Below are positions 2,268-30,077 of a stretch of 64,000 nucleotides of DNA, one piece after another. Origin of the DNA: Pseudomonadota bacterium. Its GTDB lineage: Bacteria > Bdellovibrionota > UBA1018 > CAIMNF01. Positions within the stretch are counted from its first letter, which is position 1. Each line of letters opens with the position of its first letter. The stretch is taken from contig JAIYBN010000004.1 in NCBI GenBank assembly GCA_027488515.1, forward strand, positions 177,252 through 241,251. The letters run 5' to 3'. The notes beneath the pieces are model-generated. The model was not told the DNA's origin and searched no databases. It saw only the letters and a program-made list of their open reading frames with translations. Position numbers and translations under genes: made by a program.

Positions 2268-2290
2268 TTTAATTTACCTTATTCTTTATA

Positions 2291-2390: not shown

Positions 2391-3347
2391 ATGAGAAAGC
2401 TCATTTATCAGCTTTATGGAAAAAGTCATGATAGCAAATTAGTTGAAATTGCCCCACCTGTTATATCAACTGCTAGCCAGGTTTTAGTAAAAGTAAAAGC
2501 AGCATCCCTTAATCCTGTTGATTGGAAAATTCGTCAGGGAGAGATGAAGTTGTTCACTGGCAGTCAGTTCCCTCGTGGAATGGGGTGCGATTTTTCAGGA
2601 GTAGTTTTAGATGCGGGAAGTAATGCATATCGATTTAAAAAAGACGATCGTGTTTTCGGTTTCATTCCATTCAAAGAAGCTGGTGCGTTTGCTGATATTG
2701 TGATTTGTGATCACTCCTTAGTTGGTCATATTCCAGATCATTTATCGTTTGAAGAAGCTAGTTGTCTTCCGATGGCCGGATCAGCAGCTCTTACATCGCT
2801 AGAATTAAAGGTGCATATAAATAAAGGCGATCGGGTATTTATTGGAGGTTGCACCGGTGGTGTAGGGCATTTGGCTGTTCAGTATGCCAAATCAAGAGGA
2901 GCGGTTGTTATTGGAAGTTGTGGTTCAATTGATTTTGAAAAAGCAAAATTAATAGGTGTTGATGAAATTTACGATTATTCGAACCTATTGAGTCAGAACA
3001 TTCGTGAGTGTTCTATTGTTTTTGATACTTCAGGGAAAATGAGTCGCCAAGAAGTGCTTAAACTCTTGCCTAGTCGCTTGTTTGGAATGATTAAAGGTGG
3101 AAGTTTTGTGAATTTGAATCCAACTCCAGCGTCTATGCTTAGAAGTGTTTTTTCGAATGTCTATAAAGTTGTCATTACTAAAGTAACTCCCAGCTTGATT
3201 CAGCGATTGGCCGAGCTGGCTAAAGATAAAAAACTAAGTCCATTAATTGGGGAGAAATTTGAATTTAGTGAATCGATCAAGATCATCGAAGGTTTGGAAA
3301 CAGGAAAGAAGCGATCGAATGGGAAAGTTGTATTTACGTTTAAATAA
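2391..3347 (+). CDS. NADPH:quinone oxidoreductase / zinc-type alcohol dehydrogenase-like (MDR superfamily)
   Basis: 318 aa with strong RBS GAAGGAG. Contains ASLNPVDWKIRQG and GGCTGGVGHLAVQYAK, a Rossmann GxGxxG typical of quinone oxidoreductase-like MDR proteins. Confidence 0.8.
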   Translation: MRKLIYQLYGKSHDSKLVEIAPPVISTASQVLVKVKAASLNPVDWKIRQGEMKLFTGSQFPRGMGCDFSGVVLDAGSNAYRFKKDDRVFGFIPFKEAGAFADIVICDHSLVGHIPDHLSFEEASCLPMAGSAALTSLELKVHINKGDRVFIGGCTGGVGHLAVQYAKSRGAVVIGSCGSIDFEKAKLIGVDEIYDYSNLLSQNIRECSIVFDTSGKMSRQEVLKLLPSRLFGMIKGGSFVNLNPTPASMLRSVFSNVYKVVITKVTPSLIQRLAELAKDKKLSPLIGEKFEFSESIKIIEGLETGKKRSNGKVVFTFK

Positions 3348-3370
3348 TAGAAACTGAAAAGGAGAAGAAA

Positions 3371-4024
3371 ATGAAAGTATTAATTTTTTTAATGAGTATG
3401 AGTGTCGGTTTTAATTGTCTTGCGAAAGATGAAAATCTAATTTCACAGAAGAGAGTAGCCAGTCATATTAAGGGTAAATGGGTAAGTATTTCATGTGAAC
3501 TTCGCCCTCGTGAAAATCGCGGTACTGGGGGAAGTGTTGAGTCATTCTGGTTAAAGAGGGAATTTTTCTTTGATGGTAAAGATGGCTTTAAAGGAATAAT
3601 TAGAGGATTCGCAGATCCACTCTGCGAACAACCTGTACAGGATTTTGAGTTCGAAGGGAATTTAATCTGGCGTGGCCCTCATCCAGTAGCAAAAGAAGCG
3701 CAGTCAGTTGATTATGAACTCTCAAAAGAATTTGCAATTATTCCAAGATCACAAGCAGCCGTAGATCAAATGAACTCTCTACCGCCTGGTGCTTGTGGCG
3801 ATAAAAAGTATGCACTGAATGAGCGTCAGAGTATTTTAAAAAAACAGTGTATTCTTTTTAACATAAAAGCTGGCGAAGCAGTTAAGGATCACGATCTCGT
3901 TTACCTTTACGGATTTAATAACCTTCTTTTCATGGGCGCCAAACACGTGAATGGACAAGGGTTTTACACTGAAGATTTAAGGCCTAAGGGCGGACTTCAA
4001 ATCCCTCTTGTGAAAGCAAAATAA
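3371..4024 (+). CDS. hypothetical secreted protein (low-GC islet)
   Basis: 217 aa with RBS GGAGAAG and N-terminal signal peptide MKVLIFLMSMSVGFNCLA. No recognisable motif. AT-rich codon usage unlike the rest of the window. Confidence 0.6.
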   Translation: MKVLIFLMSMSVGFNCLAKDENLISQKRVASHIKGKWVSISCELRPRENRGTGGSVESFWLKREFFFDGKDGFKGIIRGFADPLCEQPVQDFEFEGNLIWRGPHPVAKEAQSVDYELSKEFAIIPRSQAAVDQMNSLPPGACGDKKYALNERQSILKKQCILFNIKAGEAVKDHDLVYLYGFNNLLFMGAKHVNGQGFYTEDLRPKGGLQIPLVKAK

Positions 4025-4633: not shown

Positions 4634-4710
<77 letters not shown>

Positions 4711-16404: not shown

Positions 16405-19400
16405 TCAAACCCCGAGCAGGTACTCGAAATCACTCTGTGACAGCGAGAGTGACCCACCTTCCGGCATTTCCTTGTCCACGTTCTCGACATCGGAGAACAA
16501 CGAGTTGAACTGCGTGGACTTCCGGCTCTTCAAGATTTCGATCTTCTCCTCGACCGACTCGCTCATGATGTAACGGTACACCTGGACGGGTTTGGTCTGC
16601 CCGATCCGGTGGGTCCGGTCCGTGGCCTGGTTCTCGACCGCCGGGTTCCACCAGGGCTCGAGGTGGAAAACATAGCTCGCTTTGGTGAGGTTGAGACCGA
16701 CACCGCCGGTTTTCAAAGTCATGAGCATGACCCCGCCACCCTGATGCTCCTGGAAGCTCCTGAGTTGGTTTTCACGCTCTTTCCTGCCCACCTTGCCGTG
16801 CATGGCGAAGAAGGGGATGCCTTCTTTCTTCATCGCCTCGGCGAGCAGGTTGAAGGTTCCGAGGAACTGGGTGAACACCAAGGCGCTTTCCCCGGTTTCG
16901 ATGATGCCCTTCAAGTTGTCGATCAGGAGATTCAGTTTGGGCGGAGTCTCCTTGTAGTCCACATTCGGGATGGAGCTCGGAGCGGAGCACACCTGGCGCA
17001 GGCGCAGGAGTGCGGTCAGCATGATGAGCTGGCTCTTCGCCTCGCCCCCTTCGGTGATGGCTTCACGAACCTTGCTGTTCCAGGAAAGTGCGATGTCACG
17101 GTAGATCGCCAGCTGCTTCTCGGTGAACGGGATCTTGACCGTGCTCTCCTGTTTCTGGGGGAGCTCCTTCAGGATCGAAGACTTGTTCCGACGCAACACC
17201 AGCGGCCTGGTTTTCATTTTTAGGTACTGGATACGCTCCGGTTCAGGTGCGTAGGATTGCATGTAGGTTTTCCGGAATTGATCGTAACCCCCGAGGCAGC
17301 CCGGAACGACCAGATCCATCAATGAGAAGAACTCACCCATGTGATTTTCGAGCGGGGTACCGGTGAGGGCCAGTTTGAATCGGGCAGGAAGTTTGCGGGA
17401 CACAGTGGTTCGCTTGGCGGTGATGGTTTTCAGGTTCTGGGCCTCGTCGTACACATGGACCGTCCAGCGATAGCTCGAGAAGAAAGCCTCATGCTCCGCG
17501 AGAAGCCCGTAGGTGCAGATGATCATTCCCTGAGGATGAGTGTCGAGGAACTCCTTGGCTTTCTGGATCTCACGGGATTGGAAAATGTGGATCGGAAGAT
17601 CGGGGGTGAAGCGGGTCGCTTCGCTGAACCAGTTGTAAGTGAGTGAAGTGGGAACCACGATCAGGCTGTGTCCGAGACCGTTCGTTTCCCTCAACAATTC
17701 GAGGAACACGAGTGTCTGTACCGTCTTACCCAGACCCATGTCGTCTGCGAGGATCCCGCCGAGTCCGAGCCGGTAAAGATCATGGATCCATTGGACTCCC
17801 CGGTTCTGGTAGGGCTTCAAGTCCCCTTTGAAGTGTTTCGGCAAGGGAAGCGGAGGACGATCCTCGTTCAGAGAATCGTAGAACTTAACGATTTCCTCCC
17901 AGATCGGTCCACCCTTCACCCGGACACCGGAGGCCCGGAGCGCGAGCAGTTCGAGCGTTGAATGCTTGGGAAGACGGTAGATCCGGTCGGTCTTGCGTTG
18001 CCCACGTTTCCCGCCGGCGTTACCTGCGAGTTGATCCCAGAACAGTGCGAGTTTTTCGAGGGAGGGAATCGAGGCCTTGTTGAGCCTGTAAATCTTGCCT
18101 TGGAAGGTGAGCATCCCGCTCTCTGACAGTTTCCGGGCCTGTTCCTCGTCGATCTCCACGCCTTTGAAGAAGAACTTGGGTTGGAGCTCGAACCAGTCGA
18201 TCCGACCTTCTTGATCCTGTTTTTCGTCGAGGACGAACTCCGAGACGAAATCACTCTCTTCCAGTTCCTCGATGGACTGTCCGTCCAAGGAAAGCGTGAC
18301 ACCTTCGTTCTGGAGCGGGAGGAATGCACGGATCAGGGTTTCAGCACCGGGTTGTTTGCGGTTGAAAACGATTTTGAAGTGCTCCCCGTGCCGGCCCGTC
18401 TCCGGAACCCATCCGAGATCGGGCATCTGACCGGGGTCTTTGAATCCCGGGTTCTGGATGACCGGTGTCTTCAGGTCCAGACTTTTGGTGCCACTTTCAC
18501 GTTGAGTGCGGGCGATCCAGGCATAGATGAGCTTCAGGTAGAACGGATACGCTCCCGACACCAGCAAAGACTTGCCGGGGAGGATCAGCGGGAGCGTTTT
18601 TTCCTGCCAAAGATCCTCAAGGGAGAGCGTGTAGTTCCGCAGGTACTCGATCGCGGCTTTCGAACAGAAAAGCTCGAGCGACATGCGTGCGGAGCTCGGG
18701 GTCTCCAACTTGGAATTGAACAGGTTCACGATCCGCTTCTTCAGGATCTCGAAGAAAGCATCGAACGGACGGTCTTTTTTCAGAAGGTAACGGACGGTTT
18801 CGAGTTGGACCAGCGCAGCCACGCCGGGCTGGTTGAGGAGGTCCCGATCGAACGAGCGCTTGGCCTGTTTCCGGGTGTCTGAAAGTCCCTCAGCGAGTTC
18901 CGGTTTCCACGATTCGATTCCGTCACAGAGGATTTTCAGTTGGGCGAGCACCGGCCCGGGAAGCCCTTCGACGACCGTTCCTTCGAAATCCAACTCCACC
19001 GAGAAGGTGCCGTTCGAAAACACCCGGATCTGGGGTTGGAAGGATTCGGCCCGTACCGATTTGAAGGGTGGATGGGCATGGATTTCCCCCATGCTCACAC
19101 CGAAATCATCCTGGATCAGATTGAAGACACTTTCGAACTCACGATGTCCGCCCAGCACGGTTTCAGCGGGGTAGCGTTCGAGCCAACGGTGGAAAGAGTG
19201 GAAGAAAAGCGCCCGTTTTCCGGGATGCAAGGCGAACGTGGGGAACCAGGTCCACTCGGGGTGGAGATCGAGCCTCACCCGTGTCGCAAGTTTTTCAGGA
19301 TGTTCCCCGTTTGCGGCTTCGAAATGGAAACCCGACTTCAGCGAGGAGGGAGGGGCGAAATCCACGCTCTCGAGAGGAAGAACACGTCCGGAGGTGTCGA

Positions 19401-20415
19401 GCACTTCCGAATGGGAGAAGTAGAGGTTCAGCTTGCCCCGTTTGGCCAGTCGGGAGGCGGCCTCGGTGATCGAAAGCAAGATCGAGTCGAGGCGGTCTTC
19501 TTTGGCTTTGTCGGAAAGAACCGGGTCACTCACTGAATCGGACTGTCTCGGAAAGAACCGGTTCGAGGTGAGATCCTGGAACGTGGGGCTGATACTGGAT
19601 CCAACCGGGTGCAGCTCGCCCGGAACCAGTGTGCAGAACTTGTGGTAGAGGATGTCCGAAACCGGGAGTCGCGTTCCATCGGAAAACAGGTAAACGAGAC
19701 TCTTCTTCTTGGCGAGCATCCAGTCCTGGGACTTCTGGAAGAGTGCGTAAGATCCGCCTTGTGCATCGAGAGGGGAGATCCACCTCGGATGAGGAAGGTC
19801 GGAGTGGGAATAAAACTGGATTGCCGGCCTCGGCAAAAGACTTTCGCGGTAAGGGTGGCTCTCCGGCAGGGCGATCCACTCACCCGTGGGAAGATCCTCA
19901 CCTTTCAAGCGTTGTTCGGGAAGGCACAGGACCAAGCCGGTGAAGGTGACGCCGAGATCGGGATGGGTCAGGTATTCACGATCCCGATGCAAAATCGTCT
20001 GGGGCTGGGGAGCCGAGGAACTCTTGAGCTTCTGGAATTCTTCCTCGTAGGTCTGGACGATCCGGAGGATTTCCGGATCCACCCGGTTCAGCTCGTATTG
20101 TTTCCGGGCTAGAGTCATGGTGACCCACGCCGCGATCGCCTGGTGTTTGCAAAGCTTGGCCGATTGGGCCATGTAGCAGTTGCACTCGGAGTACAGGGGT
20201 TGCGAAGAGGTCGTCATGTCGATTCGGGCGGAACAATCCTCATCGAGTGCGAATTGGATCTGGAATCCTCTCGATCCGACCACCGCCACTTCCAGTCCGC
20301 GGAATCCCCCTTCGCGGAGGTATTGGAGGCCTCGCTCCAGAGCGGACGGGTCCAGCTTCTTGGTCAACGCGTCGGGACCAAGGCGTTTCAGATCCTGGAG
20401 TGAGGGAAGTTGCAT
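16405..20415 (-). CDS. SWIM zinc-finger + SNF2-family (Rad54/RapA-like) helicase, 1336 aa
   Basis: N-terminal SWIM CxC...CxH (CNCYMAQSAKLCKHQAIAAW). SNF2_N motifs ILADDMGLGKTVQTL and DEAQNLK. Helicase-C motifs HLEPWWNPAVENQATDRTHRIGQTKPVQVYRY. Confidence 0.85.
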   Translation of the reverse strand: MQLPSLQDLKRLGPDALTKKLDPSALERGLQYLREGGFRGLEVAVVGSRGFQIQFALDEDCSARIDMTTSSQPLYSECNCYMAQSAKLCKHQAIAAWVTMTLARKQYELNRVDPEILRIVQTYEEEFQKLKSSSAPQPQTILHRDREYLTHPDLGVTFTGLVLCLPEQRLKGEDLPTGEWIALPESHPYRESLLPRPAIQFYSHSDLPHPRWISPLDAQGGSYALFQKSQDWMLAKKKSLVYLFSDGTRLPVSDILYHKFCTLVPGELHPVGSSISPTFQDLTSNRFFPRQSDSVSDPVLSDKAKEDRLDSILLSITEAASRLAKRGKLNLYFSHSEVLDTSGRVLPLESVDFAPPSSLKSGFHFEAANGEHPEKLATRVRLDLHPEWTWFPTFALHPGKRALFFHSFHRWLERYPAETVLGGHREFESVFNLIQDDFGVSMGEIHAHPPFKSVRAESFQPQIRVFSNGTFSVELDFEGTVVEGLPGPVLAQLKILCDGIESWKPELAEGLSDTRKQAKRSFDRDLLNQPGVAALVQLETVRYLLKKDRPFDAFFEILKKRIVNLFNSKLETPSSARMSLELFCSKAAIEYLRNYTLSLEDLWQEKTLPLILPGKSLLVSGAYPFYLKLIYAWIARTQRESGTKSLDLKTPVIQNPGFKDPGQMPDLGWVPETGRHGEHFKIVFNRKQPGAETLIRAFLPLQNEGVTLSLDGQSIEELEESDFVSEFVLDEKQDQEGRIDWFELQPKFFFKGVEIDEEQARKLSESGMLTFQGKIYRLNKASIPSLEKLALFWDQLAGNAGGKRGQRKTDRIYRLPKHSTLELLALRASGVRVKGGPIWEEIVKFYDSLNEDRPPLPLPKHFKGDLKPYQNRGVQWIHDLYRLGLGGILADDMGLGKTVQTLVFLELLRETNGLGHSLIVVPTSLTYNWFSEATRFTPDLPIHIFQSREIQKAKEFLDTHPQGMIICTYGLLAEHEAFFSSYRWTVHVYDEAQNLKTITAKRTTVSRKLPARFKLALTGTPLENHMGEFFSLMDLVVPGCLGGYDQFRKTYMQSYAPEPERIQYLKMKTRPLVLRRNKSSILKELPQKQESTVKIPFTEKQLAIYRDIALSWNSKVREAITEGGEAKSQLIMLTALLRLRQVCSAPSSIPNVDYKETPPKLNLLIDNLKGIIETGESALVFTQFLGTFNLLAEAMKKEGIPFFAMHGKVGRKERENQLRSFQEHQGGGVMLMTLKTGGVGLNLTKASYVFHLEPWWNPAVENQATDRTHRIGQTKPVQVYRYIMSESVEEKIEILKSRKSTQFNSLFSDVENVDKEMPEGGSLSLSQSDFEYLLGV

Positions 20416-20511
20416 TGGTCATAATTGTGACTGATCGGATGGAGGGATTCAAGAGATAAATTGCGGTCTTGCATCCGCGGAGGAACAGGAAAACAATGGG
20501 AGAAAAGGAGA

Positions 20512-20832
20512 ATGCAGATGAAGATTGAAAGAAGGAATTTCCTGAAAACTCTCGTAGTGGGTGGTGTGGCACTGGCGGTGGCCCCTGTTCTCCGCATCCG
20601 TGACGCAATCGCAGATCTGGTGAAAGCCGATGATCCCCTCGTCGTCGCATTGGGTTATGTGGCGGTTGCCAAGAACTCCAAGGACCGCAAGGACAAGAAA
20701 GCGAATTGCAAGAACTGTCAATTTTACTCTGACACCACCGGTAAGGAAAAGCAGGCCAAGTGCCAGTTGATCCCGAGCGGCGAAGTGGCTGCCGAGGGAT
20801 GGTGCCGTTCTTACTCCAAGCGTAAGGCTTGA
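20512..20832 (+). CDS. high-potential iron-sulfur protein (HiPIP) with Tat signal
   Basis: Twin-arginine signal ERRNFLKTLVVGGVALAVAP. Mature part ALGYVAVAK...CKNCQFY...KCQLIPSG...EGWCRSY matches the HiPIP four-Cys pattern CxxC...C...WC. RBS AAAGGAGA. Confidence 0.8.
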   Translation: MQMKIERRNFLKTLVVGGVALAVAPVLRIRDAIADLVKADDPLVVALGYVAVAKNSKDRKDKKANCKNCQFYSDTTGKEKQAKCQLIPSGEVAAEGWCRSYSKRKA

Positions 20833-23447
20833 TGCAGAACCCTTGGATGGAGCAGATCCGGGAGTGGGGTGACGACCCCACTCCCGAAAACGCCCGTAAT
20901 CTGATTCGCGCTTTCCGGCAGTGCGAGTCCGGCGAAGTCAGGCTCGAGGTGTTGAGCCTGCTCGGGCGGTGCCGCGATCCCCGTTCGCACCGGTTTCTGG
21001 TCGACTTGGTCCGATCCGGGAAGGACTTGGCGGAGCGGGAGTTCGCTGTCCGTTCGATCGGAAGGCGGGGAGGCCCCGCCTCCAGGAGAATTCTGTCGCG
21101 TCTCTGGGACGAGGTGCCATCGTCCTTGGAGTGTTCAGTGATCACGGCTTTGGGGCATGCCCGGGTTTTCGGTGCCGTGCCGAGCTTGTCCGTGCGTCTG
21201 GAGTCAGCGGTCCAGGATCGTGACCGGTCTGTTTTGAAGGCGATTGTCGTCGCACTGGGCGAGTTGAAAGGTGTTTCCGCCCTCGGCTCATTGAGGGCCT
21301 TGTTGGAGCTCGATTGGGTGCGCTCGGAGCGGGATCTTTCCCTGCCGGTCCTGTTTGCATGGGGGCGCTTGGGACGTGATCCGGGATTTTTGGAACCTTA
21401 CGGGCGATTCTTCAGAGAGGATCCTTTTTCCTGGCAGGTGTTCGAAAGCGCTTTGAACCAGGTTCAACTCCGGAGTCAGGTCCGGATCGAAGACTATCTG
21501 CACCGGGTGTTCCATTCTCCTGATCCTCATCCGAGTCTGCCTCTTGAACTCCGCGCCTTCGATCCGGAAGAGCTGGCGGCCGGATTGTCCGTGTTCGACC
21601 GGAGCGTCCACTGGCGCCGTCACCTTTTCTGTTTGAGGGCCCTCGATGCCCGGGCTCAAAGACGTTTGTTCGAAGGTTGGGTGATTCCGGAGTCCGACCG
21701 GGACGGGTTCTTGTCTGCGCTCGCCGATCTCGATGAGGTGGAGGATCCTGCGATGATGCTCCGGGAGCTCGATCACTCCATGCCCGGATGGTGCGATTCT
21801 CCGGACAGGCGTTCGGCGCGGATTGCCGCCGTTCCGCAAACGGTGGACTGGATCGCCGAAGCCCGTCGTTTTGCGGGTGAAGATGAAAAGCGTGTCATCC
21901 TCCTTTTGAATCAATGGAGTGATTGGAGTCCGGTACTGTCCGACGAGGAGCGATCCAGAGTTCACGATGGTTGGGTTCCGTTCGTCCGGACCTCCGGGGC
22001 GAAAGCCCGTTTGTGCCGTTCGGCAGGAGAGTCCGGTCAAAGTGTCCCCGCTTTGAATCGCGTATTGGTCGATTGGTTCTCGGATCCGATGGTCCGGGAC
22101 AGTGCCTTGATCTTCGCTGAAAAAACAGGTTCCCCGCTCCTTTTGGACGGGGTGACGGCCCTTTCTCCTGCGGATCGATCTCCCCACTTGGGCGGGATTT
22201 TGCGGTACCTGGAGGCCATGTTGCGTGTCCGGTCGGATGAGCGGTTGTCGGGAGCGGTGAAGTCGATCCTCTCTGAAGCGAGCGGAATCGGATCCGAAGA
22301 GGTCAAATTGGCGGCACTTCGGGTGCTTCAACTTCTTCCGCTTCCGGATTACGAGAGTCAGGTGGTTTCACTGGTCGAGGACCGCGATCAACAGGTGGGA
22401 CTCCAAGCCGTGATGGCACTGCGAGGCTACCCGGATTCCGTCCGGGCTGTTGCCGTTCTGGGTGCATGCCTGGATTCGCCCGTGCCTGCGTTGCGGGAAC
22501 GCGCTCTCGAGGCCTTGTGTGTATCGCGCGTTCCGGCGGCTCGATCCTTCCTTCTTTCCCACCTCGCGAAAAATGCCCGCGATGAATCAGTGGTGGACAG
22601 GGTATTTCGTGGGTTGCTGCCCGGTTTTTCAGATGATCTCGATACCGCACGCATCCTCGGCGAAATTCTCGCAGCCGACCGTTCCAACCCCCAGTCGACC
22701 AGGCTGGAGGAGGTTCTCGGACGGTTCACGCTGAAATCAATCGTGTCCCGCCAGACCAATTCCGAGATGGAGCAGATTGATTCCAGGCTCCGGAGTGCGA
22801 TTCCCCGTTTTGACGAATTGGACGGGACGATCCAGCTGGCATTGAGGGCGGCGGAGCAACCGTTTTTGCAGTCGGGTCTTTTGGAGCGTCTTCCCATCGA
22901 CAAGGCTCCCACCGTCCTGCAGTACTGCAAGGCCATCGACCTCGTCCTGGACCGGTATCTCGGGCAACAGCTCCTGTTTCCGAAAATCGATTCTGCATTG
23001 CCGGAGTTCCAGCAGATCTGGCACCGTTTGGGGTTCGTGGAAGAATATCCTCTGGTGGACCGGGTGATTTTCATCACCGGGTTGAAAGGGCGGGTGGCCC
23101 CCGAGCACTTTCCCTTGCACAAGGCGAAGATGATGTGTGGGACCTTCTTCAACGGTCGGATCATGCAGGATCGCTACAAGGTGTTCGACGGACTCCGGGC
23201 GTGGGCTGTGATTTTTTTGCTTTTCACCCGCAAGATTCCCGGTAAAGACGGCGGAGTGGGGCCGTTGGTCACACTTCGTGATGCGGAAGAAGCCGATTGC
23301 GTGAAAGTGGCGGTCAAACTGATGAACCTCCAGGATCTCAGAAACCCGGCCGCGCATCGACAGACTTATCCGGATCTGGATTCGGTCCGGGCGGTCCGGG
23401 AGGATTCGCTCGATCTGGTGAACCGGATTCTGAAGTGGGTCCTTTAA
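20832..23447 (+). CDS. HEAT/PBS-lyase-repeat protein (872 aa) with C-terminal HEPN-like RNxxAH motif
   Basis: ATG overlaps the HiPIP stop (TGATG). Repeated helical HEAT-like units, e.g. VRAVAVLGACLDSPVPALRERALEALC. The last roughly 110 aa are helical and contain LQDLRNPAAHRQ, which fits R-x4-6-H / RNxxxH. The HEPN assignment is inference. Confidence 0.65.
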   Translation: MQNPWMEQIREWGDDPTPENARNLIRAFRQCESGEVRLEVLSLLGRCRDPRSHRFLVDLVRSGKDLAEREFAVRSIGRRGGPASRRILSRLWDEVPSSLECSVITALGHARVFGAVPSLSVRLESAVQDRDRSVLKAIVVALGELKGVSALGSLRALLELDWVRSERDLSLPVLFAWGRLGRDPGFLEPYGRFFREDPFSWQVFESALNQVQLRSQVRIEDYLHRVFHSPDPHPSLPLELRAFDPEELAAGLSVFDRSVHWRRHLFCLRALDARAQRRLFEGWVIPESDRDGFLSALADLDEVEDPAMMLRELDHSMPGWCDSPDRRSARIAAVPQTVDWIAEARRFAGEDEKRVILLLNQWSDWSPVLSDEERSRVHDGWVPFVRTSGAKARLCRSAGESGQSVPALNRVLVDWFSDPMVRDSALIFAEKTGSPLLLDGVTALSPADRSPHLGGILRYLEAMLRVRSDERLSGAVKSILSEASGIGSEEVKLAALRVLQLLPLPDYESQVVSLVEDRDQQVGLQAVMALRGYPDSVRAVAVLGACLDSPVPALRERALEALCVSRVPAARSFLLSHLAKNARDESVVDRVFRGLLPGFSDDLDTARILGEILAADRSNPQSTRLEEVLGRFTLKSIVSRQTNSEMEQIDSRLRSAIPRFDELDGTIQLALRAAEQPFLQSGLLERLPIDKAPTVLQYCKAIDLVLDRYLGQQLLFPKIDSALPEFQQIWHRLGFVEEYPLVDRVIFITGLKGRVAPEHFPLHKAKMMCGTFFNGRIMQDRYKVFDGLRAWAVIFLLFTRKIPGKDGGVGPLVTLRDAEEADCVKVAVKLMNLQDLRNPAAHRQTYPDLDSVRAVREDSLDLVNRILKWVL

Positions 23448-24454
23448 GGTCCTGTAAATGTCCTGAGCACGGCTTCCAAAGCACGGTTCCGGTGGAGGTC
23501 GCTTTCGGCGAACACTTCGTGTCGGGAGCCTTCGAGCACGATGGCGTTGCACTTCGCTTCCGGACTTCCACAAATCCGGATGAGTTCTTCCGGGACGGCG
23601 TAGCTGTCATCGGTCGGCACCAGCATGGTCACGGGTCGCTGAAGTTGAGATGCATCCCGGGCAATCCGCTCCGATGCATCCAGTGCCGCATTCACCCAGG
23701 AGTTGGTCGGTCCGCCCACCCATCGATCCGGGTACAATCGGGCCAGTCTTTGTTCAAAGGCGTAGCGGAAGGTGCTTGAAGTGCCCCGGTTCGATTCGAA
23801 GGGGCGCTCCGGATCCCGTGGACCTTTGGTCGGAGCGTATCGTTCCCCGAGGCCAAGGGTGACCAGAAACGAGGTGATCACCCGGGCAATGGGGCGGGGA
23901 AAAGGATCCGTCCGGATGGCCAACATCGGAGCGTTGACGACGATCCGACCCAGCTGCGGGTTCGCATGCTTCCCGGCCCAATCGAGTGCCAGCGCGCCTC
24001 CCATCGAATGCGCAAGCACATGCATCCTTCGCTTCGGTGCGACTTCCAGGAAGCGACTGAGGTCCGATACGTGGTCTTCGAAGTGTTCAAGATGGACGGC
24101 GTCCGGATTGCTGCGGGCCAGGCGGGGAGAGGTGCCCTGTCCCCGATGATCGTAGGTGAGGATCTCGTACCCCCTCCGGTGGAGGTCATGGAGCAGCTCG
24201 ATGTACTTGAGCCAGGGTTCCGAAAACCCGGGAAGGAAAAGCACGGTTTCGGTCGCAGACCGGTTCGGAAACCGGATTCCTTTCAAAGAGAGTCCGTCCT
24301 CGCTCCGGAAATCGATCGGAACTCCGGTGAGGAAAAAGGGTTCGAGGGTGGTTTTCCAAGCGTCGCCCCCGAGAGTTTGCTCTGGTAATGCCAGGGCGGG
24401 AATCGGTCGGGCCAGGAGCAACCATCCGATCCAGAGGATCATCCAGCGTCGCAT
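23444..24454 (-). CDS. secreted alpha/beta-hydrolase (lysophospholipase/monoacylglycerol-lipase-like)
   Basis: Signal peptide MRRWMILWIGWLLLARPIPALA. Nucleophile elbow HSMGG. Start at 24454, 3 nt after the upstream gene stop. The longer ORF-track start at 24754 is Arg/His-rich and judged non-coding. Confidence 0.7.
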   Translation of the reverse strand: MRRWMILWIGWLLLARPIPALALPEQTLGGDAWKTTLEPFFLTGVPIDFRSEDGLSLKGIRFPNRSATETVLFLPGFSEPWLKYIELLHDLHRRGYEILTYDHRGQGTSPRLARSNPDAVHLEHFEDHVSDLSRFLEVAPKRRMHVLAHSMGGALALDWAGKHANPQLGRIVVNAPMLAIRTDPFPRPIARVITSFLVTLGLGERYAPTKGPRDPERPFESNRGTSSTFRYAFEQRLARLYPDRWVGGPTNSWVNAALDASERIARDASQLQRPVTMLVPTDDSYAVPEELIRICGSPEAKCNAIVLEGSRHEVFAESDLHRNRALEAVLRTFTGP

Positions 24455-24456
24455 GA

Positions 24457-25266
24457 TCAGAACCCCACTCCGAGGAACGTTCCCATGGTGTGATATCCGG
24501 CGGAATCGAAGCTCCCCTCGATTCCCAATCTGAGTCCGGTGGCGCCCGGGATCCTGAACTTCACGCCGGTGAAGGCGTAGGCCGATCCGGCCGAGCCTGT
24601 TTTGGAAAGATCGGTACTGACGGTGAGGGGTCCCACGGTGGTCGTGACGGTGGCCTTCATGGTTCCGGAAACGAAACGTCCCCCGATCCCGATCCAACTT
24701 TCGGCAAAAGAGAGGGGTTGGGAAACGACCAGCTCGGGAGAGATCACCGTGCATCGATCGATGTAAAGCATGGGTATGGAAATCCAGGTGTAGAGCATCC
24801 TCAGCGCAAGCGAGGGGCCTTCCTCGGCAGAGACGAGTGAGAACTTCAAGTCCGCTCCATACACGGCCTGGCGCTTGAAGGTGAGGGCTGACAGGCCGAA
24901 TTCAGAGGATTCTCCGATGCTTTTCCGGAGGTGGGCCTTGATCATGGGAATGGCGGGAACCGCAGTCGCGTTCACGGGAATGCCGTTCGCAGTCAAAGCA
25001 TCCGGGAGGCCTTCTCCGATCTTGACCAAAGTGGTCTCGATGCCGAGATCTAGCAAGCTCCCGGTCGAGCGGGCGACCGCTCCCGAATAGGGACGGTGCG
25101 CGGCGTAAGATCCGACCAAAAGGAGAGCCTCGTCGGCGACGGCCTGCGGAATGGCGGATCCGAGCTGGTTGGGATCGAAGATGCCCGTGTCGAGAAATCC
25201 TGCACCTTCGGCCGGGCCCGACAGGATGGCGAGCAGGAAGGGCAGGATCAGCCAACGATCACGCAT
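24457..25266 (-). CDS. hypothetical secreted protein
   Basis: 269 aa. Signal peptide MRDRWLILPFLLAILSGPAEGAG. Gly/Ala/Ser-rich beta-type composition. No known motif recognised. Confidence 0.5.
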   Translation of the reverse strand: MRDRWLILPFLLAILSGPAEGAGFLDTGIFDPNQLGSAIPQAVADEALLLVGSYAAHRPYSGAVARSTGSLLDLGIETTLVKIGEGLPDALTANGIPVNATAVPAIPMIKAHLRKSIGESSEFGLSALTFKRQAVYGADLKFSLVSAEEGPSLALRMLYTWISIPMLYIDRCTVISPELVVSQPLSFAESWIGIGGRFVSGTMKATVTTTVGPLTVSTDLSKTGSAGSAYAFTGVKFRIPGATGLRLGIEGSFDSAGYHTMGTFLGVGF

Positions 25267-25983: not shown

Positions 25984-26862
25984 ATGCGAATTGTCATGGA
26001 TTTTGACGGGGTCTTCACCGACCCGAGCCACGAGGGTGATGCTTGTTCCCGCCAGTTCCGGAACAAGATTGTTTCCCTTTCCCTGAAAGAACTGTCTCTG
26101 GAAACGGAAGAGAAAGTCGACTCCTGGTTGGGTGAGTTGCGGGCGCGTCAGGCGTCCTGTCCGTTCGAGTATGGATGGAGGAGCGAAGGAAGGATCTCGG
26201 CATTCACCTTCGAGGACCCGTTCATCCGGAATATCGGTCTTGCGGATTTCATGGACGGTCTCGTGGCCGAAGGCGATGTCCGGGCCAAGAAAGTGCTGGG
26301 CGAGTTGAAGGCCAAGGACAAGATTCCGAGCTACGGCCAGTTGTCCGAGTGGGCCTTCCACCAGTTGCACATGAAGAAGTCGCCGGATCCTGCTGCCAAG
26401 GCATGGGTGATGGAAGCGATCGACCGGGGGCACGAAGTGTTCATCGTGTCGAACTCGGCCACTGACAAGATCCAGGAGTTTTTGGATCAAGCGGGTTTTC
26501 CTGCAGAAAAACGTCCTACCGTCCGGGGCGGAGCCCGGAAATTCGGTCTGGGGAATCGCCCGCAGACCATCGATCTCGGACAGCTCGGAGACCGCGCGGT
26601 GGAGGTGGATACGGATCGTCCGTTTTATGAATCCGCCTTGCTCGAGTTGAACCCGGATGCCGTGATCGGCGATGTGTTTTGTCTCGATCTTTCGCTTCCG
26701 ATCCGTCTGAAGCGCCAGAAGAAACTCGATTTCAAGTGGGGGATTTTTTACCGCCACCGGGATTACACACCGACTTCGATGGTCGAGTTGGTGACCGGAA
26801 GGTTCTCCAAGGTACCCGAAGTCAAGTTGGTCCGTGAATGGTCCCAGGTGTGGCCTTCATGA
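25984..26862 (+). CDS. HAD-superfamily hydrolase
   Basis: N-terminal motif I MDFDGVFTDP (DxDGV) and later VSNSATDK (motif II-like). Confidence 0.7.
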   Translation: MRIVMDFDGVFTDPSHEGDACSRQFRNKIVSLSLKELSLETEEKVDSWLGELRARQASCPFEYGWRSEGRISAFTFEDPFIRNIGLADFMDGLVAEGDVRAKKVLGELKAKDKIPSYGQLSEWAFHQLHMKKSPDPAAKAWVMEAIDRGHEVFIVSNSATDKIQEFLDQAGFPAEKRPTVRGGARKFGLGNRPQTIDLGQLGDRAVEVDTDRPFYESALLELNPDAVIGDVFCLDLSLPIRLKRQKKLDFKWGIFYRHRDYTPTSMVELVTGRFSKVPEVKLVREWSQVWPS

Positions 26863-27977
26863 TCCGATTCTTGGTCGTTCTGGCGTTGTTTGTGGCGGGT
26901 GGTACGGTCTATTTGAAAAAAACCCAAGGTATCGGCTTGGGAGAATGGATTTTTTCCCAGGTTGCAAGGAACTTCGGGAAGAAAACCGGTGTGGATACCC
27001 TGGTGACAGGGGGTGAGACCCGGAAGATCACCGCTTTGTTGTACGCTTCCAAACCCCAGCTGAACGCCATTTTGCAGACTTCGGTGGTGATTCCCGCCTG
27101 CAAGACATTCTTCGAGAAGCTCGCGGCCCTCGAATTGAACGGACATGACGAAACAGGGGGGCCTCATTATCTTTTTGTGAAGGACCTTCCTCGAGTCGGT
27201 GCCGACTGTGAATTGACCGATCCGGATCTGAAGTGGGCTTCTCAGAATTATTTTGAATCCTGTTTCGCCTCCAATCCCTCCACCTTGGCCGCACCGGATG
27301 CAAGGTGCTTCCGGTCACTGGTCTGGATCCGGGCAGCGGTGACCCGGCATTTTTTGTCAGAGCCTTCGAAGTTGGATTCGCTTGAGAAAGAGGAATTGGC
27401 CGATTTGCTTCTCGCATCCGTGTTCGTGCCCAAAGGTCGGGGAGCGATTCCCGCTTACGGAGAGATCCGGGAAGTGGCGGAGCGACTCGACAAGAAGCAT
27501 CCGTCGATGCCTCTGATCCAGAAAGTCCTGTTTGTCGCCCGGGCGAACCTTTGGAAAGTGTATCGGGAGTCGCTGACGTACCCGGAACAGGCCAAGTTCT
27601 GGGAGGACATGAAGGGGATCCATCTCCGTGGACGGGATCTCGGATTGCCTCCCGGTGATTTGAAAAACATGGAGCTTGTCCTGGAGACCCGCGGGTTTGA
27701 GCCCTCTCAGATCAAGAAGTTGGTCGACTCGTTGGCCGGATCGCCTGAAAACGCTGCGAAGCGTTCCTTGCTCACCGCTTTTTACCACTGGAAGCAGGCC
27801 GAGGCCGCCGCCGCCCTCGAGCAGATCGAAGCGGCGATCCGGACCCAGCCGGGAGAGAAGATTTTCCCGGCACTCTTCAAGGAACTAAGTGTTTCCGGCG
27901 CCGGTGAGGAAGTTTTCATGAGGGCGCTGAATGTGGACCTTGATCCGACCGATTTTGAGAATCGTCCTGCTCTGTGA
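26859..27977 (+). CDS. hypothetical membrane-anchored protein
   Basis: ATGA overlap with the HAD gene. Single N-terminal TM helix MIRFLVVLALFVAGGTVYL. No recognisable motif. Confidence 0.5.
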   Translation: MIRFLVVLALFVAGGTVYLKKTQGIGLGEWIFSQVARNFGKKTGVDTLVTGGETRKITALLYASKPQLNAILQTSVVIPACKTFFEKLAALELNGHDETGGPHYLFVKDLPRVGADCELTDPDLKWASQNYFESCFASNPSTLAAPDARCFRSLVWIRAAVTRHFLSEPSKLDSLEKEELADLLLASVFVPKGRGAIPAYGEIREVAERLDKKHPSMPLIQKVLFVARANLWKVYRESLTYPEQAKFWEDMKGIHLRGRDLGLPPGDLKNMELVLETRGFEPSQIKKLVDSLAGSPENAAKRSLLTAFYHWKQAEAAAALEQIEAAIRTQPGEKIFPALFKELSVSGAGEEVFMRALNVDLDPTDFENRPAL

Positions 27978-27991: not shown

Positions 27992-28068
27992 GCGCCCGTA
28001 GCTCAGCTGGATAGAGCATCGCATTTCTAATGCGAGGGTCCCGTGTTCGAATCGCGGCGGGCGCGCCA
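27992..28068 (+). tRNA. tRNA-Arg (anticodon TCT)
   Basis: 77-nt cloverleaf GCGCCCG...CGGGCGC-G-CCA. Anticodon loop TTTCTAA. D-arm GCTCAGCTGGATAGAGC. T-loop GTTCGAATC. Confidence 0.9.
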
Positions 28069-28070
28069 TT

Positions 28071-28922
28071 TCACTCCGTGGTGAATGTCGTACTGAGGCC
28101 GTAGTGATCCGAGTACCATGGCCTCTCGTTCAGGATCAATCGACTCGACTCCGCTCGCAGGGTTCCTGTGGCACCGTTCCGGTACAGAACATAGTCGATC
28201 CGCTCGCGAGTCAGAGGAAAATGGGTCCGGATGGCATAATCGCGGGCATAGGCGTTCTCAAACGCGTCGTAGGTGTAACCCGGCTCCGAGGAGGAATGGG
28301 TCTCGGCCCAAGCGTCCGCAAGTGCCAGCTCGGATCCGAGCCAGGTATGGGGTTGGCTCCCCGGCGTGAAATTCAGATCTCCTGCGAGGACCAGGGGGGC
28401 ATCCGGGTCGGCCTCACGCTGGATGAGATCCCGGATCTGGATCAATTGGTCGATACGGATCGGATCTCCGCCGCGGGCATTCAAATGGGTGCCCAGAAGG
28501 TTCAGTTTCTTTCCGTCAGGCATTTGGATCAAAGCCAGGACGACCCCTTTTCGGGAAAGGCAGTCATCCCCCTTGCACTTGCAGAAATCGATTTTGGAAG
28601 CGCGCAAGATGGGGTGTTTCGAGAGGATCCTGATGCCCGAAGAAACGAGTTTCGGGAAGGCATTCGGTCCGTCCACCCAATACGGGAACTTGCCGCTGTG
28701 AAAGGCCCGCTTGGCCCGTGCGGTGAACACCTCACTCAGAACAATGAAATCCGGGTCGAGCTCTTCGAGTTGCTCCATGGCGAAGGCGTAACGGAAGGTG
28801 TCCTTGACCGCCAGAGGTACCCCCCAGGTGTTGAACTCCACCACGGTGAAGGATCCGGCCAACGCAGAAGCCGGTCCGGACGCCAAAAGCCATCCGGCCA
28901 AAAGAAGAAGCCATTTCGACAT
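28071..28922 (-). CDS. secreted endonuclease/exonuclease/phosphatase (EEP) family protein
   Basis: Signal peptide MSKWLLLLAGWLLASGPASALA. EEP-type motifs (VVEFNTWG, LSEV, LAGDLNFTP, SDHYGL C-terminal His). Confidence 0.7.
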   Translation of the reverse strand: MSKWLLLLAGWLLASGPASALAGSFTVVEFNTWGVPLAVKDTFRYAFAMEQLEELDPDFIVLSEVFTARAKRAFHSGKFPYWVDGPNAFPKLVSSGIRILSKHPILRASKIDFCKCKGDDCLSRKGVVLALIQMPDGKKLNLLGTHLNARGGDPIRIDQLIQIRDLIQREADPDAPLVLAGDLNFTPGSQPHTWLGSELALADAWAETHSSSEPGYTYDAFENAYARDYAIRTHFPLTRERIDYVLYRNGATGTLRAESSRLILNERPWYSDHYGLSTTFTTE

Positions 28923-28953: not shown

Positions 28954-29958
28954 TCAAGACCCGACGGATTCTCCATAGCTGAATTCGATCCAGAACTGGC
29001 CGCTCGGGATTTTCAAGGGCACCACGATCGTGTTCCGCCCCTTGATCTCGGCCGACGAAGAGCGGATGTCCTTACCGAGAATCAGGTTGGGAAGGGCCAT
29101 GGTGATGGCATGTCCGTTCGAGTTCAGAACCTGCTTGGCGACCCCGAAACAGATGTTGGTGATTTCGCTCGCACCGTCCTGGACTTCGGAGTCCAGTTCC
29201 TTGAAATCGCTTCCCAGCATGTCATTCATCAGGGTCAGGAAGGGGGCTGTTTCGTAAAACAATCCGAAGTAACCCGAGAAGCCGGACTCGTTGACACCGA
29301 TGACCGAACCGACGTCGAAAAGGAAGTTCTTTTCGGGGGTTTTTTTGAAGGGGCTACCGATTTCAATCTTGGCGTTGAATTGGACCTCGAGGGTTTTTCT
29401 GACAGCTCGTACGAACTCGAGGAGCATGTCCGCACTCCACTCCGCCTTCTTTTCTTGAGACTGGGCGGGGGGGGCCACATCGGTCGTTTTCTTTTTCAGA
29501 TCGAACACGACGTAGAATGATTCGCCGTCCGTTTTGAATTCGATGCCCTCGGCATCTCCGGAGGCCACACTCTGGATGCTGGTTCCGGTGAGGAGGGTCG
29601 GAATCGCCATTTGGATCCCGAACCCGTTCTCGTTCAGGGAGACTTTCGCATTTCCGAAAATGATATTGGTGAGCTCTGCGGCACCGTCTTCCATGCCCGG
29701 TGCCAGCTCGGTCATCTCTTCCCCGAGCATGCCGTTCATGACATCCAGAAAGGTCGAACGCGGGAACTGGATGCTCATGGATCCTTGGATGGCGGGGGAG
29801 GTGATGCCGATCAATCCTGCCACCGAGATCTCTTTTCCTGAAAGCTCACCGGGTTTCATGCGGCGATGACCCCGGATCGGAATCCGGCAAAGATCCTGCA
29901 AGGTCAATTCGGTGGCCTGGATGAACGCGTTCAAGAACGGATCGAACTGTGGGGTCAT
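28954..29958 (-). CDS. tandem CheX/CheC-like domain protein
   Basis: Two internal repeats with CheX-like signatures (ELTNIIFGNAKVSLNENGFGIQMAIPTLLTG and ASEITNICFGVAKQVLNSNGHAITMALPNLILG). ATG at 29958 preferred over the upstream TTG at 29994. Confidence 0.6.
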   Translation of the reverse strand: MTPQFDPFLNAFIQATELTLQDLCRIPIRGHRRMKPGELSGKEISVAGLIGITSPAIQGSMSIQFPRSTFLDVMNGMLGEEMTELAPGMEDGAAELTNIIFGNAKVSLNENGFGIQMAIPTLLTGTSIQSVASGDAEGIEFKTDGESFYVVFDLKKKTTDVAPPAQSQEKKAEWSADMLLEFVRAVRKTLEVQFNAKIEIGSPFKKTPEKNFLFDVGSVIGVNESGFSGYFGLFYETAPFLTLMNDMLGSDFKELDSEVQDGASEITNICFGVAKQVLNSNGHAITMALPNLILGKDIRSSSAEIKGRNTIVVPLKIPSGQFWIEFSYGESVGS

Positions 29959-30001
29959 GAATCCATTAGAGCCTGAAACATCCCCGGGGTTCAAGCGGAA
30001 G

Positions 30002-30077
30002 TGGCGGTCCCGGCAGGAATCGAACCTGCAACAGCCCTTTAGGAAAGGGCCGTTATATCCATTTAACTACAGGACCG
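30002..30077 (-). tRNA. tRNA-Arg (anticodon CCT)
   Basis: The reverse complement gives a 76-nt cloverleaf CGGTCCT...GGGACCG-CCA with anticodon loop TTCCTAA. The ORF 29912..30109 overlapping it is spurious. Confidence 0.85.

What the first reader, a model, noticed from the sequence alone, without database searches (positions are those of the whole stretch)
20512..23447. HiPIP gene translationally coupled to an 872-aa HEAT-repeat protein with a HEPN-like C-terminus
A Tat-secreted high-potential iron-sulfur protein gene ends in TGATG, the start of a large cytoplasmic HEAT/PBS-lyase-repeat protein. The last roughly 110 residues of that protein are helical and contain LQDLRNPAAHRQ, matching the HEPN RNase R-x4-6-H / RNxxAH signature. 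HEAT-scaffold plus HEPN architectures occur in abortive-infection and antiphage proteins. Pairing with a periplasmic electron carrier is unexpected, and the locus is divergent from the SWIM-Snf2 helicase. This is my best candidate in the window for an undescribed system, but the HEPN call rests on a short motif.
Basis: inference. Interest (0 to 1): 0.6.

Follow-up and report, generated by a model that had tools for sequence, protein, structure and literature searches.

The report
HEAT-solenoid HEPN RNase beside HiPIP
A large cytoplasmic protein of predatory-type bacteria (Bdellovibrionota) joins a long helical-repeat scaffold to a previously uncatalogued RNA-cutting (HEPN) domain; it looks like an inherited chromosomal gene, not an antiphage system, and its pairing with a small iron-sulfur electron carrier gene is confined to one sublineage.

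Summary
A Tat-signal HiPIP gene (20512-20832) ends in TGATG, which overlaps the ATG of an 871-aa ORF (20832-23447).

The HEPN guess is supported.
- The last ~230 residues, not ~110, model as a helical bundle.
- R837-N838-x3-H842 sits at the end of helix 3.
- It is invariant in 38 relatives that fall to 16% identity. All 11 invariant columns of the whole protein lie in this domain.
- No Pfam, NCBIfam or PADLOC model covers the domain.

The "defence system" reading is not supported.
- About 237 clusters (50% identity) carry the domain. Most of the 150 listed are 800-1020 aa with the domain at the C-terminal end, and every named source is Bdellovibrionota-type.
- Neighbours are ordinary chromosomal genes.
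- There are no defence neighbours and no plasmid or phage copies.

HiPIP lies directly upstream in all ~20 loci of one subclade and in 0 of ~25 others. In that subclade it always travels with the SNF2 gene, so linkage cannot be told apart from inherited synteny.

Best reading: an undescribed HEPN family, probably a regulated endoribonuclease with a HEAT/ARM scaffold. Its substrate is unknown.

The parts
16405..20415 (-). Divergently transcribed 1336-aa SNF2-family helicase with an N-terminal SWIM-like CxC...CxH motif. It is a neighbour, not shown to be part of any system.
   Evidence: Pfam SNF2-rel_dom 1.5e-53 and Helicase_C 1.2e-18. PADLOC DpdE/ZorD hits cover only residues ~813-1310, the helicase core. 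It is 46-97% identical and adjacent in every HiPIP-linked locus with upstream sequence. The SWIM motif CNCYMAQSAKLCKH is read from the translation; Pfam SWIM was not hit.
20416..20511 (.). 96-nt divergent intergenic region between the SNF2 and HiPIP genes; presumably holds both promoters.
   Evidence: Sequence. GGAG lies at 20507-20510. No sigma-70 consensus match.
20512..20832 (+). HiPIP gene: 106 aa, a Tat-exported high-potential [4Fe-4S] protein precursor. An alternative start is ATG 20518.
   Evidence: Pfam HIPIP 6.2e-15, above cutoff; TAT_signal 5e-4; TIGR01409 20.4 bits (cutoff 16.7). RRNFLK and four Cys are read from the translation. Orthologues are 40-97% identical and lie directly upstream in all loci of one subclade.
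20829..20835 (+). Stop/start overlap TTGATGC: the HiPIP stop TGA (20830-20832) shares its A with the ATG (20832-20834) of the large ORF.
   Evidence: Sequence. The same overlap or a 0-3 nt junction occurs in the closest relatives L001 and L007-L009. More distant relatives have spacers of about 18-60 nt.
20832..22742 (+). N-terminal ARM/HEAT alpha-solenoid (residues 1-637, about 40 helices) of the 871-aa protein. No signal peptide.
22761..23444 (+). C-terminal HEPN-fold domain (residues 644-871). Layout: helix 1 665-683, helix 2 692-733, insert 734-819, helix 3 820-841, helix 4 849-870.
23340..23357 (+). [quoted passage not shown]
   Evidence: Translation. R, N and H are invariant in 38 of 38 diverse members; variants include RNEVAH, RNSAAH, RNRAVH and RNHSAH. 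The placement matches the rule stated in PMC3710099.
23444..24454 (-). Convergent alpha/beta-hydrolase gene (likely ~336 aa; the 436-aa ORF listed from 24754 overlaps the next gene). Its stop overlaps the stop of the HEAT-HEPN gene. It is a variable neighbour.
   Evidence: Pfam Hydrolase_4 1.8e-33. Orthologues are 336-356 aa. It is absent between HEAT-HEPN and the 269-aa gene in L012-L014.

Best explanation
The 871-aa ORF encodes a cytoplasmic two-module protein. A ~640-residue ARM/HEAT alpha-solenoid is followed by a ~230-residue HEPN-fold domain that belongs to no catalogued HEPN family.

What is shown:
- The fold.
- The invariant R-N-x3-H at the end of helix 3.
- Seven further invariant polar residues plus one invariant Trp (W791), all inside this domain.
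- An architecture that recurs in most listed members of a Bdellovibrionota-type family.
- A chromosomal, non-mobile, non-defence gene context.

What is inferred:
- The domain is an active, metal-independent endoribonuclease that leaves 2',3'-cyclic phosphate ends, as characterised HEPN RNases do.
- The solenoid is the platform that selects the RNA or RNP substrate, or binds a partner, and keeps the nuclease in check.
- The protein serves cellular RNA processing, turnover or a stress response rather than phage defence. In logic it resembles RNase L/Ire1 (repeat or sensor module plus HEPN nuclease) or Las1.

The HiPIP gene is a real Tat-exported periplasmic electron carrier. In one subclade it lies directly upstream and is probably co-transcribed. 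This is most simply a lineage-specific neighbour fixed once inside the SNF2 | HiPIP - HEAT-HEPN block, not a functional partner.
For: HEPN fold:
- In the pLDDT-91 full-length model, R837 lies in the last turn of helix 820-841 and H842 is the first loop residue. That is where PMC3710099 places the motif.
- N follows R, as is typical of HEPN domains. An invariant acidic residue (D703) lies in helix 2.
- Weak Pfam hits fall on four different HEPN families.

Catalytic constraint:
- Across 38 members down to 16% identity, the only invariant columns are 11 residues in this domain.
- Column conservation is 0.44-0.56 in the domain and 0.23-0.44 in the solenoid.

Family and architecture:
- 237 cluster representatives reach E<=1e-3 and 164 reach <=1e-10. 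Most of the 150 listed are 800-1020 aa with the domain at the extreme C-terminus; the ~37 shorter entries may be fragments.
- All 48 metagenome pattern hits are true members.
- Every named source is Bdellovibrionales, Oligoflexia, Silvanigrellales or Bdellovibrionota, apart from two bins labelled otherwise (Proteobacteria bacterium, Nitrosovibrio sp.).

Not defence, not mobile:
- The surrounding synteny with ordinary chromosomal genes is conserved.
- Neighbours elsewhere are varied and ordinary: MurJ, HPF, Dus, RsgA, an MnmC-like methyltransferase, GlnRS, L19, PPK, Ppx, GAF, HAD and others.
- PADLOC finds nothing in the neighbours, and there is no hit in plasmids, phages or viral contigs.

HiPIP linkage is clade-specific:
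- It is present in all ~20 loci of one subclade and in 0 of ~25 others.
- In that subclade it is always accompanied by SNF2.
Against: - No enzymatic evidence exists. Some HEPN domains only bind ligands (Roquin, sacsin, MtlR).
- Foldseek against PDB gave nothing significant (best E 0.8).
- hhalign of the family profile against E. coli RnlA gave nothing.
- No HEPN Pfam model reaches threshold (best E 0.025).
- The first domain model had only pLDDT 76.5. The residue-level superposition of R and H on RnlA could not be inspected.
- The canonical E-x3-[KR] second motif is not present as such.
- Most characterised prokaryotic HEPN proteins work in conflict systems. A fast-evolving repeat module joined to a conserved nuclease is also what an immune sensor-effector looks like.
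- The HiPIP-HEAT junction stays short (overlap to ~60 nt) across a subclade in which the large protein has fallen to ~36% identity. That leaves room for a real functional link.
- The idea of an RNA or ribosome substrate rests only on a loose excess of translation-related neighbours, which was not tested statistically.
Confidence: 0.55

Rival explanations
1. Single-protein antiphage or abortive-infection sensor-effector. The HEAT solenoid would recognise a phage component and release the HEPN RNase to shut down the cell.
For: - The HEPN fold with an intact Rx4H motif is typical of Abi, toxin-antitoxin and CRISPR effectors, and the best structural matches are the antiphage toxins RnlA/LsoA.
- The solenoid evolves much faster than its neighbours: ~36-40% identity against 58-65% for SNF2 and YceD in the same loci.
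- There is a weak PADLOC hit to a candidate HEAT-ARM defence protein (3.7e-7, repeats only).
Against: - The chromosomal position is stable within a conserved block of ordinary genes across a whole subclade.
- About 30 independent contexts show no defence, toxin-antitoxin, integrase-cargo or restriction neighbours.
- The adjacent Xer-type recombinase is part of the conserved block.
- No copies occur on plasmids, phages or viral contigs.
- The architecture and length are nearly fixed, unlike the modular shuffling usual in defence genes.
- The PADLOC hit covers only 78 residues of repeat.
Confidence: 0.2
2. A functional HiPIP / HEAT-HEPN module. The cytoplasmic protein would bind the HiPIP precursor or its Tat signal (chaperone or proofreading role), or would couple respiratory or redox state to RNA cleavage.
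For: - The stop/start overlap, or a short spacer, is kept in all ~20 loci of the subclade, while the downstream hydrolase comes and goes.
- HEAT solenoids are peptide-binding scaffolds (established knowledge).
Against: - HiPIP is absent next to the gene in every other subclade (0 of ~25 loci), although the HEPN active-site residues are the same there.
- No locus keeps HiPIP-HEAT without SNF2, so the linkage carries no information beyond inherited synteny.
- No conserved Cys cluster or other redox-sensing motif is specific to the HiPIP-linked proteins (alignments).
- No paper in the searched library links HiPIP with HEAT repeats.
Confidence: 0.13
3. A non-catalytic HEPN-like helical domain. The protein would be purely a scaffold or adaptor, with the conserved polar residues binding a nucleotide, RNA or partner.
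For: - Several HEPN-fold proteins among the hits are binders, not nucleases (Roquin, sacsin, MtlR/YggD, HI0074).
- No sequence-level match to a catalytic HEPN family passes threshold.
Against: - According to PMC3710099, non-catalytic HEPN lineages typically lose the Rx4-6H motif.
- Here R, N and H are invariant over very deep divergence, together with seven other polar residues and one Trp.
Confidence: 0.12

Closest known systems
RnlA / LsoA (RNase LS) HEPN toxin domains of E. coli (PDB 6y2r, 7aex, 5hy3)
   Different: No detectable sequence similarity (hhalign E 0.17). RnlA has N-terminal NTD/NRD domains and an adjacent antitoxin gene, rnlB, inside a prophage. Here the N-terminus is a 640-residue HEAT solenoid, there is no antitoxin-like neighbour, and the context is stable and chromosomal.
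HEPN superfamily as defined by Anantharaman et al. 2013 (PMC3710099)
   Same: [quoted passage not shown]
   Different: Not captured by any Pfam or NCBIfam HEPN model. The domain is large (~230 aa) with an ~85-residue insert that carries three invariant residues. The exact E-x3-[KR] motif is missing. [quoted passage not shown]
RNase L / Ire1 (KEN domain) and Las1: HEPN nucleases recruited to cellular RNA processing and stress responses
   Same: In logic: a conserved HEPN nuclease at the C-terminus of a large sensor or scaffold module (ankyrin repeats in RNase L), vertically inherited and not part of a mobile conflict system. This rests on established knowledge.
   Different: These are eukaryotic families with no specific sequence or structural relationship shown here. 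There is no kinase or pseudokinase module. Function here is inferred, not shown.
Bacterial HEAT_2 / PBS-lyase-type repeat proteins (CpcE/F, NblB, YibA) and eukaryotic HEAT scaffolds of nuclease complexes (INTS4)
   Different: These are generic solenoid similarities. None of these proteins carries a HEPN domain. NblB scored 16 bits against a cutoff of 300.
HiPIP (PF01355), periplasmic high-potential iron-sulfur electron carriers
   Same: The upstream gene is an ordinary member: Pfam score above cutoff, twin-arginine signal, four cluster-binding Cys.
   Different: Nothing unusual in the protein itself. Only its position directly upstream of a HEPN protein gene is unusual.

Membership tests
HEPN superfamily | Four-helix up-and-down bundle core | tested here: met
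HEPN superfamily | Rx4-6H motif at the end of helix 3 / start of the helix 3-4 loop | tested here: met
   R837-x4-H842. R lies in the last turn of helix 820-841 and H is the first loop residue. Both are invariant in 38 of 38 members. The rule is taken from PMC3710099.
HEPN superfamily | Polar residue (N/D/H) immediately after the conserved R | tested here: met
   N838 is invariant.
HEPN superfamily | Second conserved acidic residue in the N-terminal half (helix 2), typically E-x3-[KR] | tested here: inconclusive
   An invariant D703 (with K700) lies in helix 692-733 and an invariant E675 in helix 665-683.
HEPN superfamily | Significant match to a curated HEPN sequence model | tested here: not met
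   No Pfam, NCBIfam or PADLOC hit for the domain. Only sub-threshold hits: HEPN_RiboL-PSP in 8 of 31 members (best E 0.025), HEPN_Swt1, DUF4145, Csm6_HEPN. This argues for a new family within the superfamily, not against the fold.
HEPN superfamily | Metal-independent endoribonuclease activity giving 2',3'-cyclic phosphate ends; dimeric composite active site | not testable with these tools
   Needs biochemistry, or at least a multimer prediction; none was available.
RnlA/LsoA-type toxin-antitoxin | Adjacent antitoxin gene (rnlB-like); NTD/NRD or RNase H-like N-terminal domains | tested here: not met
   The upstream gene is a HiPIP, the downstream gene is a convergent hydrolase, and the N-terminus is a HEAT solenoid. 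Compare the E. coli locus.
Antiphage defence / abortive-infection system | Location in defence islands or mobile elements; defence-gene neighbours; patchy, horizontally spread distribution | tested here: not met
   Conserved block of ordinary chromosomal genes. About 30 contexts without defence genes. PADLOC is negative for the neighbours. Absent from plasmids, phages and viral contigs. Presence or absence among closely related complete genomes was not tested.
HiPIP (PF01355) | Pfam model above gathering score; four Cys ligands; Tat signal peptide | tested here: met
   55.7 bits against a cutoff of 22. TIGR01409 20.4 bits against 16.7. RRNFLK and CxxC...C...C are read from the translation.
Translationally coupled operon pair | Same strand; stop/start overlap or a very short spacer; arrangement conserved in relatives | tested here: met
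   The TGATG overlap is in the window. A 4-nt overlap occurs in L001, and spacers of 0-60 nt in about 20 loci of the subclade. Co-transcription itself was not tested. The arrangement is absent outside the subclade.
HEAT/ARM repeat proteins | Tandem helix-turn-helix repeats forming a solenoid | tested here: met

The most novel reading that the evidence does not exclude
A phylum-restricted, vertically inherited HEAT-solenoid HEPN endoribonuclease would be a core cellular RNase of Bdellovibrionota. It would be a bacterial counterpart of RNase L/Ire1/Las1-type 'domesticated' HEPN nucleases, acting on rRNA, tRNA or bulk mRNA, for example at the switch between attack and growth phases or in ribosome hibernation. 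In one subclade it would be wired to respiratory status through co-expression with HiPIP.
Probability: 0.2. Interest if true: 0.7.

Novelty: new variant of a known kind. Interest (0 to 1): 0.42.

Why it matters
Nearly all studied prokaryotic HEPN nucleases belong to conflict systems: toxin-antitoxin pairs, Abi systems, and the CRISPR effectors Cas13, Csm6 and Csx1.

This family differs in several ways.
- It has about 240 clusters at 50% identity and no Pfam model.
- Its architecture recurs across most listed members.
- Its active-site constellation is very strongly conserved.
- Its genomic behaviour is stable and chromosomal.

If it is an active RNase, it would be an example of a HEPN nuclease recruited to cellular RNA metabolism in bacteria. 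It occurs in a phylum known for predatory lifestyles, where large-scale RNA turnover matters. It would also add a defined new family to the HEPN catalogue.

The practical lesson for scanning is that a HEPN motif plus a repeat scaffold does not by itself indicate defence. Gene context across relatives decides.

Tried and rejected
- Sequence searches of the domain profile against PDB chains gave only chance-level hits (PDI E 0.03; haemagglutinin E 0.13).
- Foldseek of the domain model against PDB gave nothing below E 0.8. The afdb50 library was unavailable.
- hhalign of the family profile against E. coli RnlA showed no alignment of the motifs.
- NCBIfam gave only a 16-bit NblB repeat hit, and PADLOC only a repeat-level HEAT-ARM_XIII hit.
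- The search for homologous proteins with the domain alignment returned mainly fragments. With the full-length alignment it was swamped by unrelated cyanobacterial HEAT/NACHT proteins. Neither search added taxonomy or names.
A hand-built degenerate DNA pattern replaced it.
- DpdE/ZorD membership of the SNF2 helicase was rejected. The hits cover only the helicase core, and no other Dpd or Zorya genes are nearby.
- The small ORFs upstream of non-HiPIP members were checked for hidden HiPIPs (the 84-aa ORF in L004 and the 124-aa ORF in L021). They have no Cys pattern and no similarity.
- The promoter and terminator scan of the locus did not exceed shuffled expectation. Rfam found only tRNAs in the window.
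- Literature searches found no prior description of a HiPIP-HEAT or HEAT-HEPN Bdellovibrionota protein.
Full report
OBSERVATION

The first ORF (20512-20832, 106 aa) is a bona fide HiPIP precursor.
- Pfam HIPIP scores 55.7 bits against a cutoff of 22. The twin-arginine signal domain TIGR01409 scores 20.4 bits against 16.7.
- The translation shows RRNFLK and four cysteines.
- The GGAG at 20507-20510 is better spaced for the ATG at 20518 than for 20512, so the true start may be 6 nt downstream.

The HiPIP stop codon overlaps the ATG at 20832 (cttGATGcag). That ATG opens an 871-aa ORF ending at 23447. Orthologues are 870-871 aa and share the N-terminus from that Met.

Pfam sees only HEAT_2 repeats in the large protein (1e-19). 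Nothing in Pfam, NCBIfam or PADLOC covers its last 270 residues.

IS THE C-TERMINUS A HEPN DOMAIN?

It is the best-conserved part of the protein. Four lines of evidence support a HEPN fold.

2. Structure, full-length model. With a 38-sequence alignment the model reached pLDDT 91 and pTM 0.86. It gives this layout:
- helix 1, 665-683
- helix 2, 692-733
- an ~85-residue insert
- helix 3, 820-841
- helix 4, 849-870
R837 and N838 lie in the last turn of helix 3, and H842 is the first residue of the following loop. The HEPN survey PMC3710099 places the Rx4-6H motif exactly there. It also notes a polar residue after R and an acidic residue in helix 2. Here those are N838 and D703.

3. Conservation. 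A full-library profile search found 237 cluster representatives. In an alignment of 38 of them, 16-45% identical to the window protein, only 11 columns are invariant: E675, D690, K700, D703, K764, D786, W791, Q834, R837, N838 and H842. All lie in this domain. That pattern fits an active site, not a structural helix.

4. Weak sequence signal. When 31 domain sequences were scanned individually against Pfam at permissive thresholds, the recurrent weak hits were HEPN families: RiboL-PSP-HEPN in 8 of 31, Swt1-HEPN, DUF4145 and Csm6-HEPN.

Evidence against:
- Foldseek against PDB was negative.
- Profile-to-RnlA hhalign was negative.
- No curated model reaches threshold.
- I could not inspect the residue-level superposition.

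I conclude that the HEPN call is right at the level of fold and motif. The domain represents an uncatalogued family within the superfamily. RNase activity is inferred, not shown.

THE REST OF THE PROTEIN

Residues 1-637 form an ARM/HEAT solenoid of about 40 helices. Its structural neighbours are generic: designed armadillo proteins, Integrator subunit 4, importins, CpcE and YibA. There is no signal peptide or membrane segment. The solenoid evolves faster than the nuclease domain.

FAMILY AND DISTRIBUTION

- Most of the 150 listed relatives (about three quarters) are 800-1020 aa with the domain at the extreme C-terminus. About 37 are shorter than 600 aa and may be fragments.
- A degenerate DNA pattern spanning W791 to T845 returned 48 metagenome loci, all confirmed as family members.
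- Every record that names an organism is Bdellovibrionales, Oligoflexia, Silvanigrellales or Bdellovibrionota. Two bins labelled otherwise (Proteobacteria bacterium, Nitrosovibrio sp.) are the exceptions.
- No source gives a functional name.

CONTEXT: DEFENCE OR ORDINARY CHROMOSOMAL GENE?

In the window and in all loci of its subclade, the surrounding genes follow one conserved order:
- ScpB-ScpA, a class-I tRNA synthetase, an M50 peptidase and a Xer recombinase
- the SNF2 helicase on the minus strand
- HiPIP and HEAT-HEPN on the plus strand
- then, on the minus strand, a variable alpha/beta hydrolase, a 269-aa unknown protein and YceD

None of nine window neighbours matches a PADLOC model. 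The SNF2 protein's strong PADLOC hits to DpdE/ZorD cover only the helicase core, and no other components of those systems are present.

In other subclades the gene sits among unrelated ordinary genes:
- MurJ and a ribosome hibernation factor
- GntR and Dus, with RsmE nearby
- an MnmC-like methyltransferase
- polyphosphate kinase and RsgA
- IF2-RbfA-TruB a few genes away
- GlnRS, ribosomal protein L19, Ppx/GppA, GAF, HAD, MgtC, an ABC transporter and glycosyltransferases

The domain has no tblastn match in 72,556 plasmids or 50,697 phage records, and no confirmed match in IMG/VR contigs.

The first half is not, because the contexts are not generally redox. The defence reading loses its support. 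It is not excluded, because HEPN proteins are mostly conflict enzymes and a fast-evolving repeat module joined to a conserved nuclease resembles a sensor-effector.

THE HiPIP PAIRING

HiPIP lies immediately upstream on the same strand in every locus of the subclade nearest the window, provided the locus has upstream sequence. That is about 20 loci, with junctions from a 4-nt overlap to about 60 nt. It lies upstream in none of about 25 loci from the other subclades.

Every linked locus with enough sequence also keeps the divergent SNF2 gene. The downstream side is more plastic: the hydrolase is present or absent, and extra DNA occurs in L060 and L075.

The pair is therefore real and probably co-transcribed. 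But the block was fixed once and inherited, and no rearranged genome separates HiPIP-HEAT from the rest. The conservation gives no independent evidence of a functional link.

The nuclease residues are the same with or without HiPIP, and no Cys or redox motif is specific to the linked proteins. I rate a functional coupling at roughly one in eight.

MECHANISM (best estimate)

Shown:
- a solenoid plus a HEPN fold with an invariant R-N-x3-H
- seven further invariant polar residues and one invariant Trp in the same domain
- a cytoplasmic location
- a recurrent architecture
- vertical, chromosomal inheritance

Inferred:
- a metal-independent endoribonuclease
- access to RNA governed by the solenoid, through substrate or partner binding and autoinhibition
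- a role in RNA processing, turnover or a stress response

A loose excess of translation-related neighbours (YceD, HPF, RsgA, Dus, an MnmC-like methyltransferase, GlnRS, L19) hints at rRNA, tRNA or ribosome-associated substrates. I did not test this statistically, so it is only a lead.

COMPARISON AND NOVELTY

The domain works like a HEPN RNase and passes the fold and motif tests for the superfamily. It is not a member of any curated HEPN family. It is not an RnlA-type toxin-antitoxin: it has no antitoxin neighbour and a different N-terminus.

The HEAT-solenoid plus C-terminal HEPN architecture, restricted to Bdellovibrionota-type bacteria and behaving as an ordinary chromosomal gene, was not found in the literature searched. 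[quoted passage not shown]

I class it as a new variant of a known kind.

VERDICT

- Observation: confirmed.
- HEPN interpretation: supported.
- 'Undescribed defence system coupled to HiPIP': not supported.
- Interest is moderate (0.42). This is a sizeable unannotated HEPN family with unusual genomic behaviour. It is still a member of a well-known superfamily, its function is inferred, and the eye-catching HiPIP pairing is most likely incidental.

Noticed in passing
window 2001-4000 (ORFs 2391-3347 and 3371-4024), next to tRNA-Met at 4634-4710: A 2-kb stretch with GC 0.376 against ~0.57 for the rest of the window. It carries a zinc-type alcohol dehydrogenase-like gene and an APCDD1-domain (PF14921) gene, beside a tRNA gene. 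It may be a small horizontally acquired islet.
   Followed up: partly
window 16405-20415 (-): The 1336-aa SNF2 helicase has a SWIM-like CxC-x9-CxH motif near its N-terminus, but Pfam SWIM was not hit. Its 900-residue N-terminal part has no annotated domain. It is far better conserved (46-97% identity) than the HEAT-HEPN gene across the same loci.
   Followed up: partly
window 23444-24754 (-) and 24457-25266 (-): The alpha/beta-hydrolase ORF as listed (436 aa) overlaps the next gene by about 300 nt. Orthologues are 336-356 aa, so the real start is probably near 24454. Its stop overlaps the stop of the HEAT-HEPN gene (convergent 3' ends sharing 4 nt). The hydrolase is missing from this position in L012-L014.
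   Followed up: partly
window 24457-25266 (-), 25984-26862 (+), 26838-27977 (+): Three conserved genes of the syntenic block have no Pfam or PADLOC match. The 269-aa gene next to yceD is 37-94% identical across the clade.
   Followed up: no
L020, L021, L023, L027, L049, L062 (neighbours of divergent family members): Genes directly adjacent to the HEAT-HEPN gene in other subclades include several translation or RNA-modification functions: Dus, an MnmC-like Methyltransf_30, RsgA, ribosome hibernation factor S30AE, GlnRS and ribosomal protein L19. YceD is two to three genes away in the window. The pattern is suggestive but was not tested against a background rate.
   Followed up: partly
L004/L005/L006 7725-7979 (and equivalents): In the P0007 subclade an 84-aa ORF with a signal-peptide-like hydrophobic stretch and no Cys pattern occupies the position directly upstream that HiPIP holds in the window's subclade. 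A GT87 glycosyltransferase follows downstream.
   Followed up: partly
   Followed up: no
window 28071-28922 (-), 28954-29994 (-), tRNA-Arg 27992-28068 and 30002-30076: An Exo_endo_phos family gene and a CheX-domain gene flanked by two tRNA-Arg genes. The same two genes follow the syntenic block in the P0005 contig.
   Followed up: no
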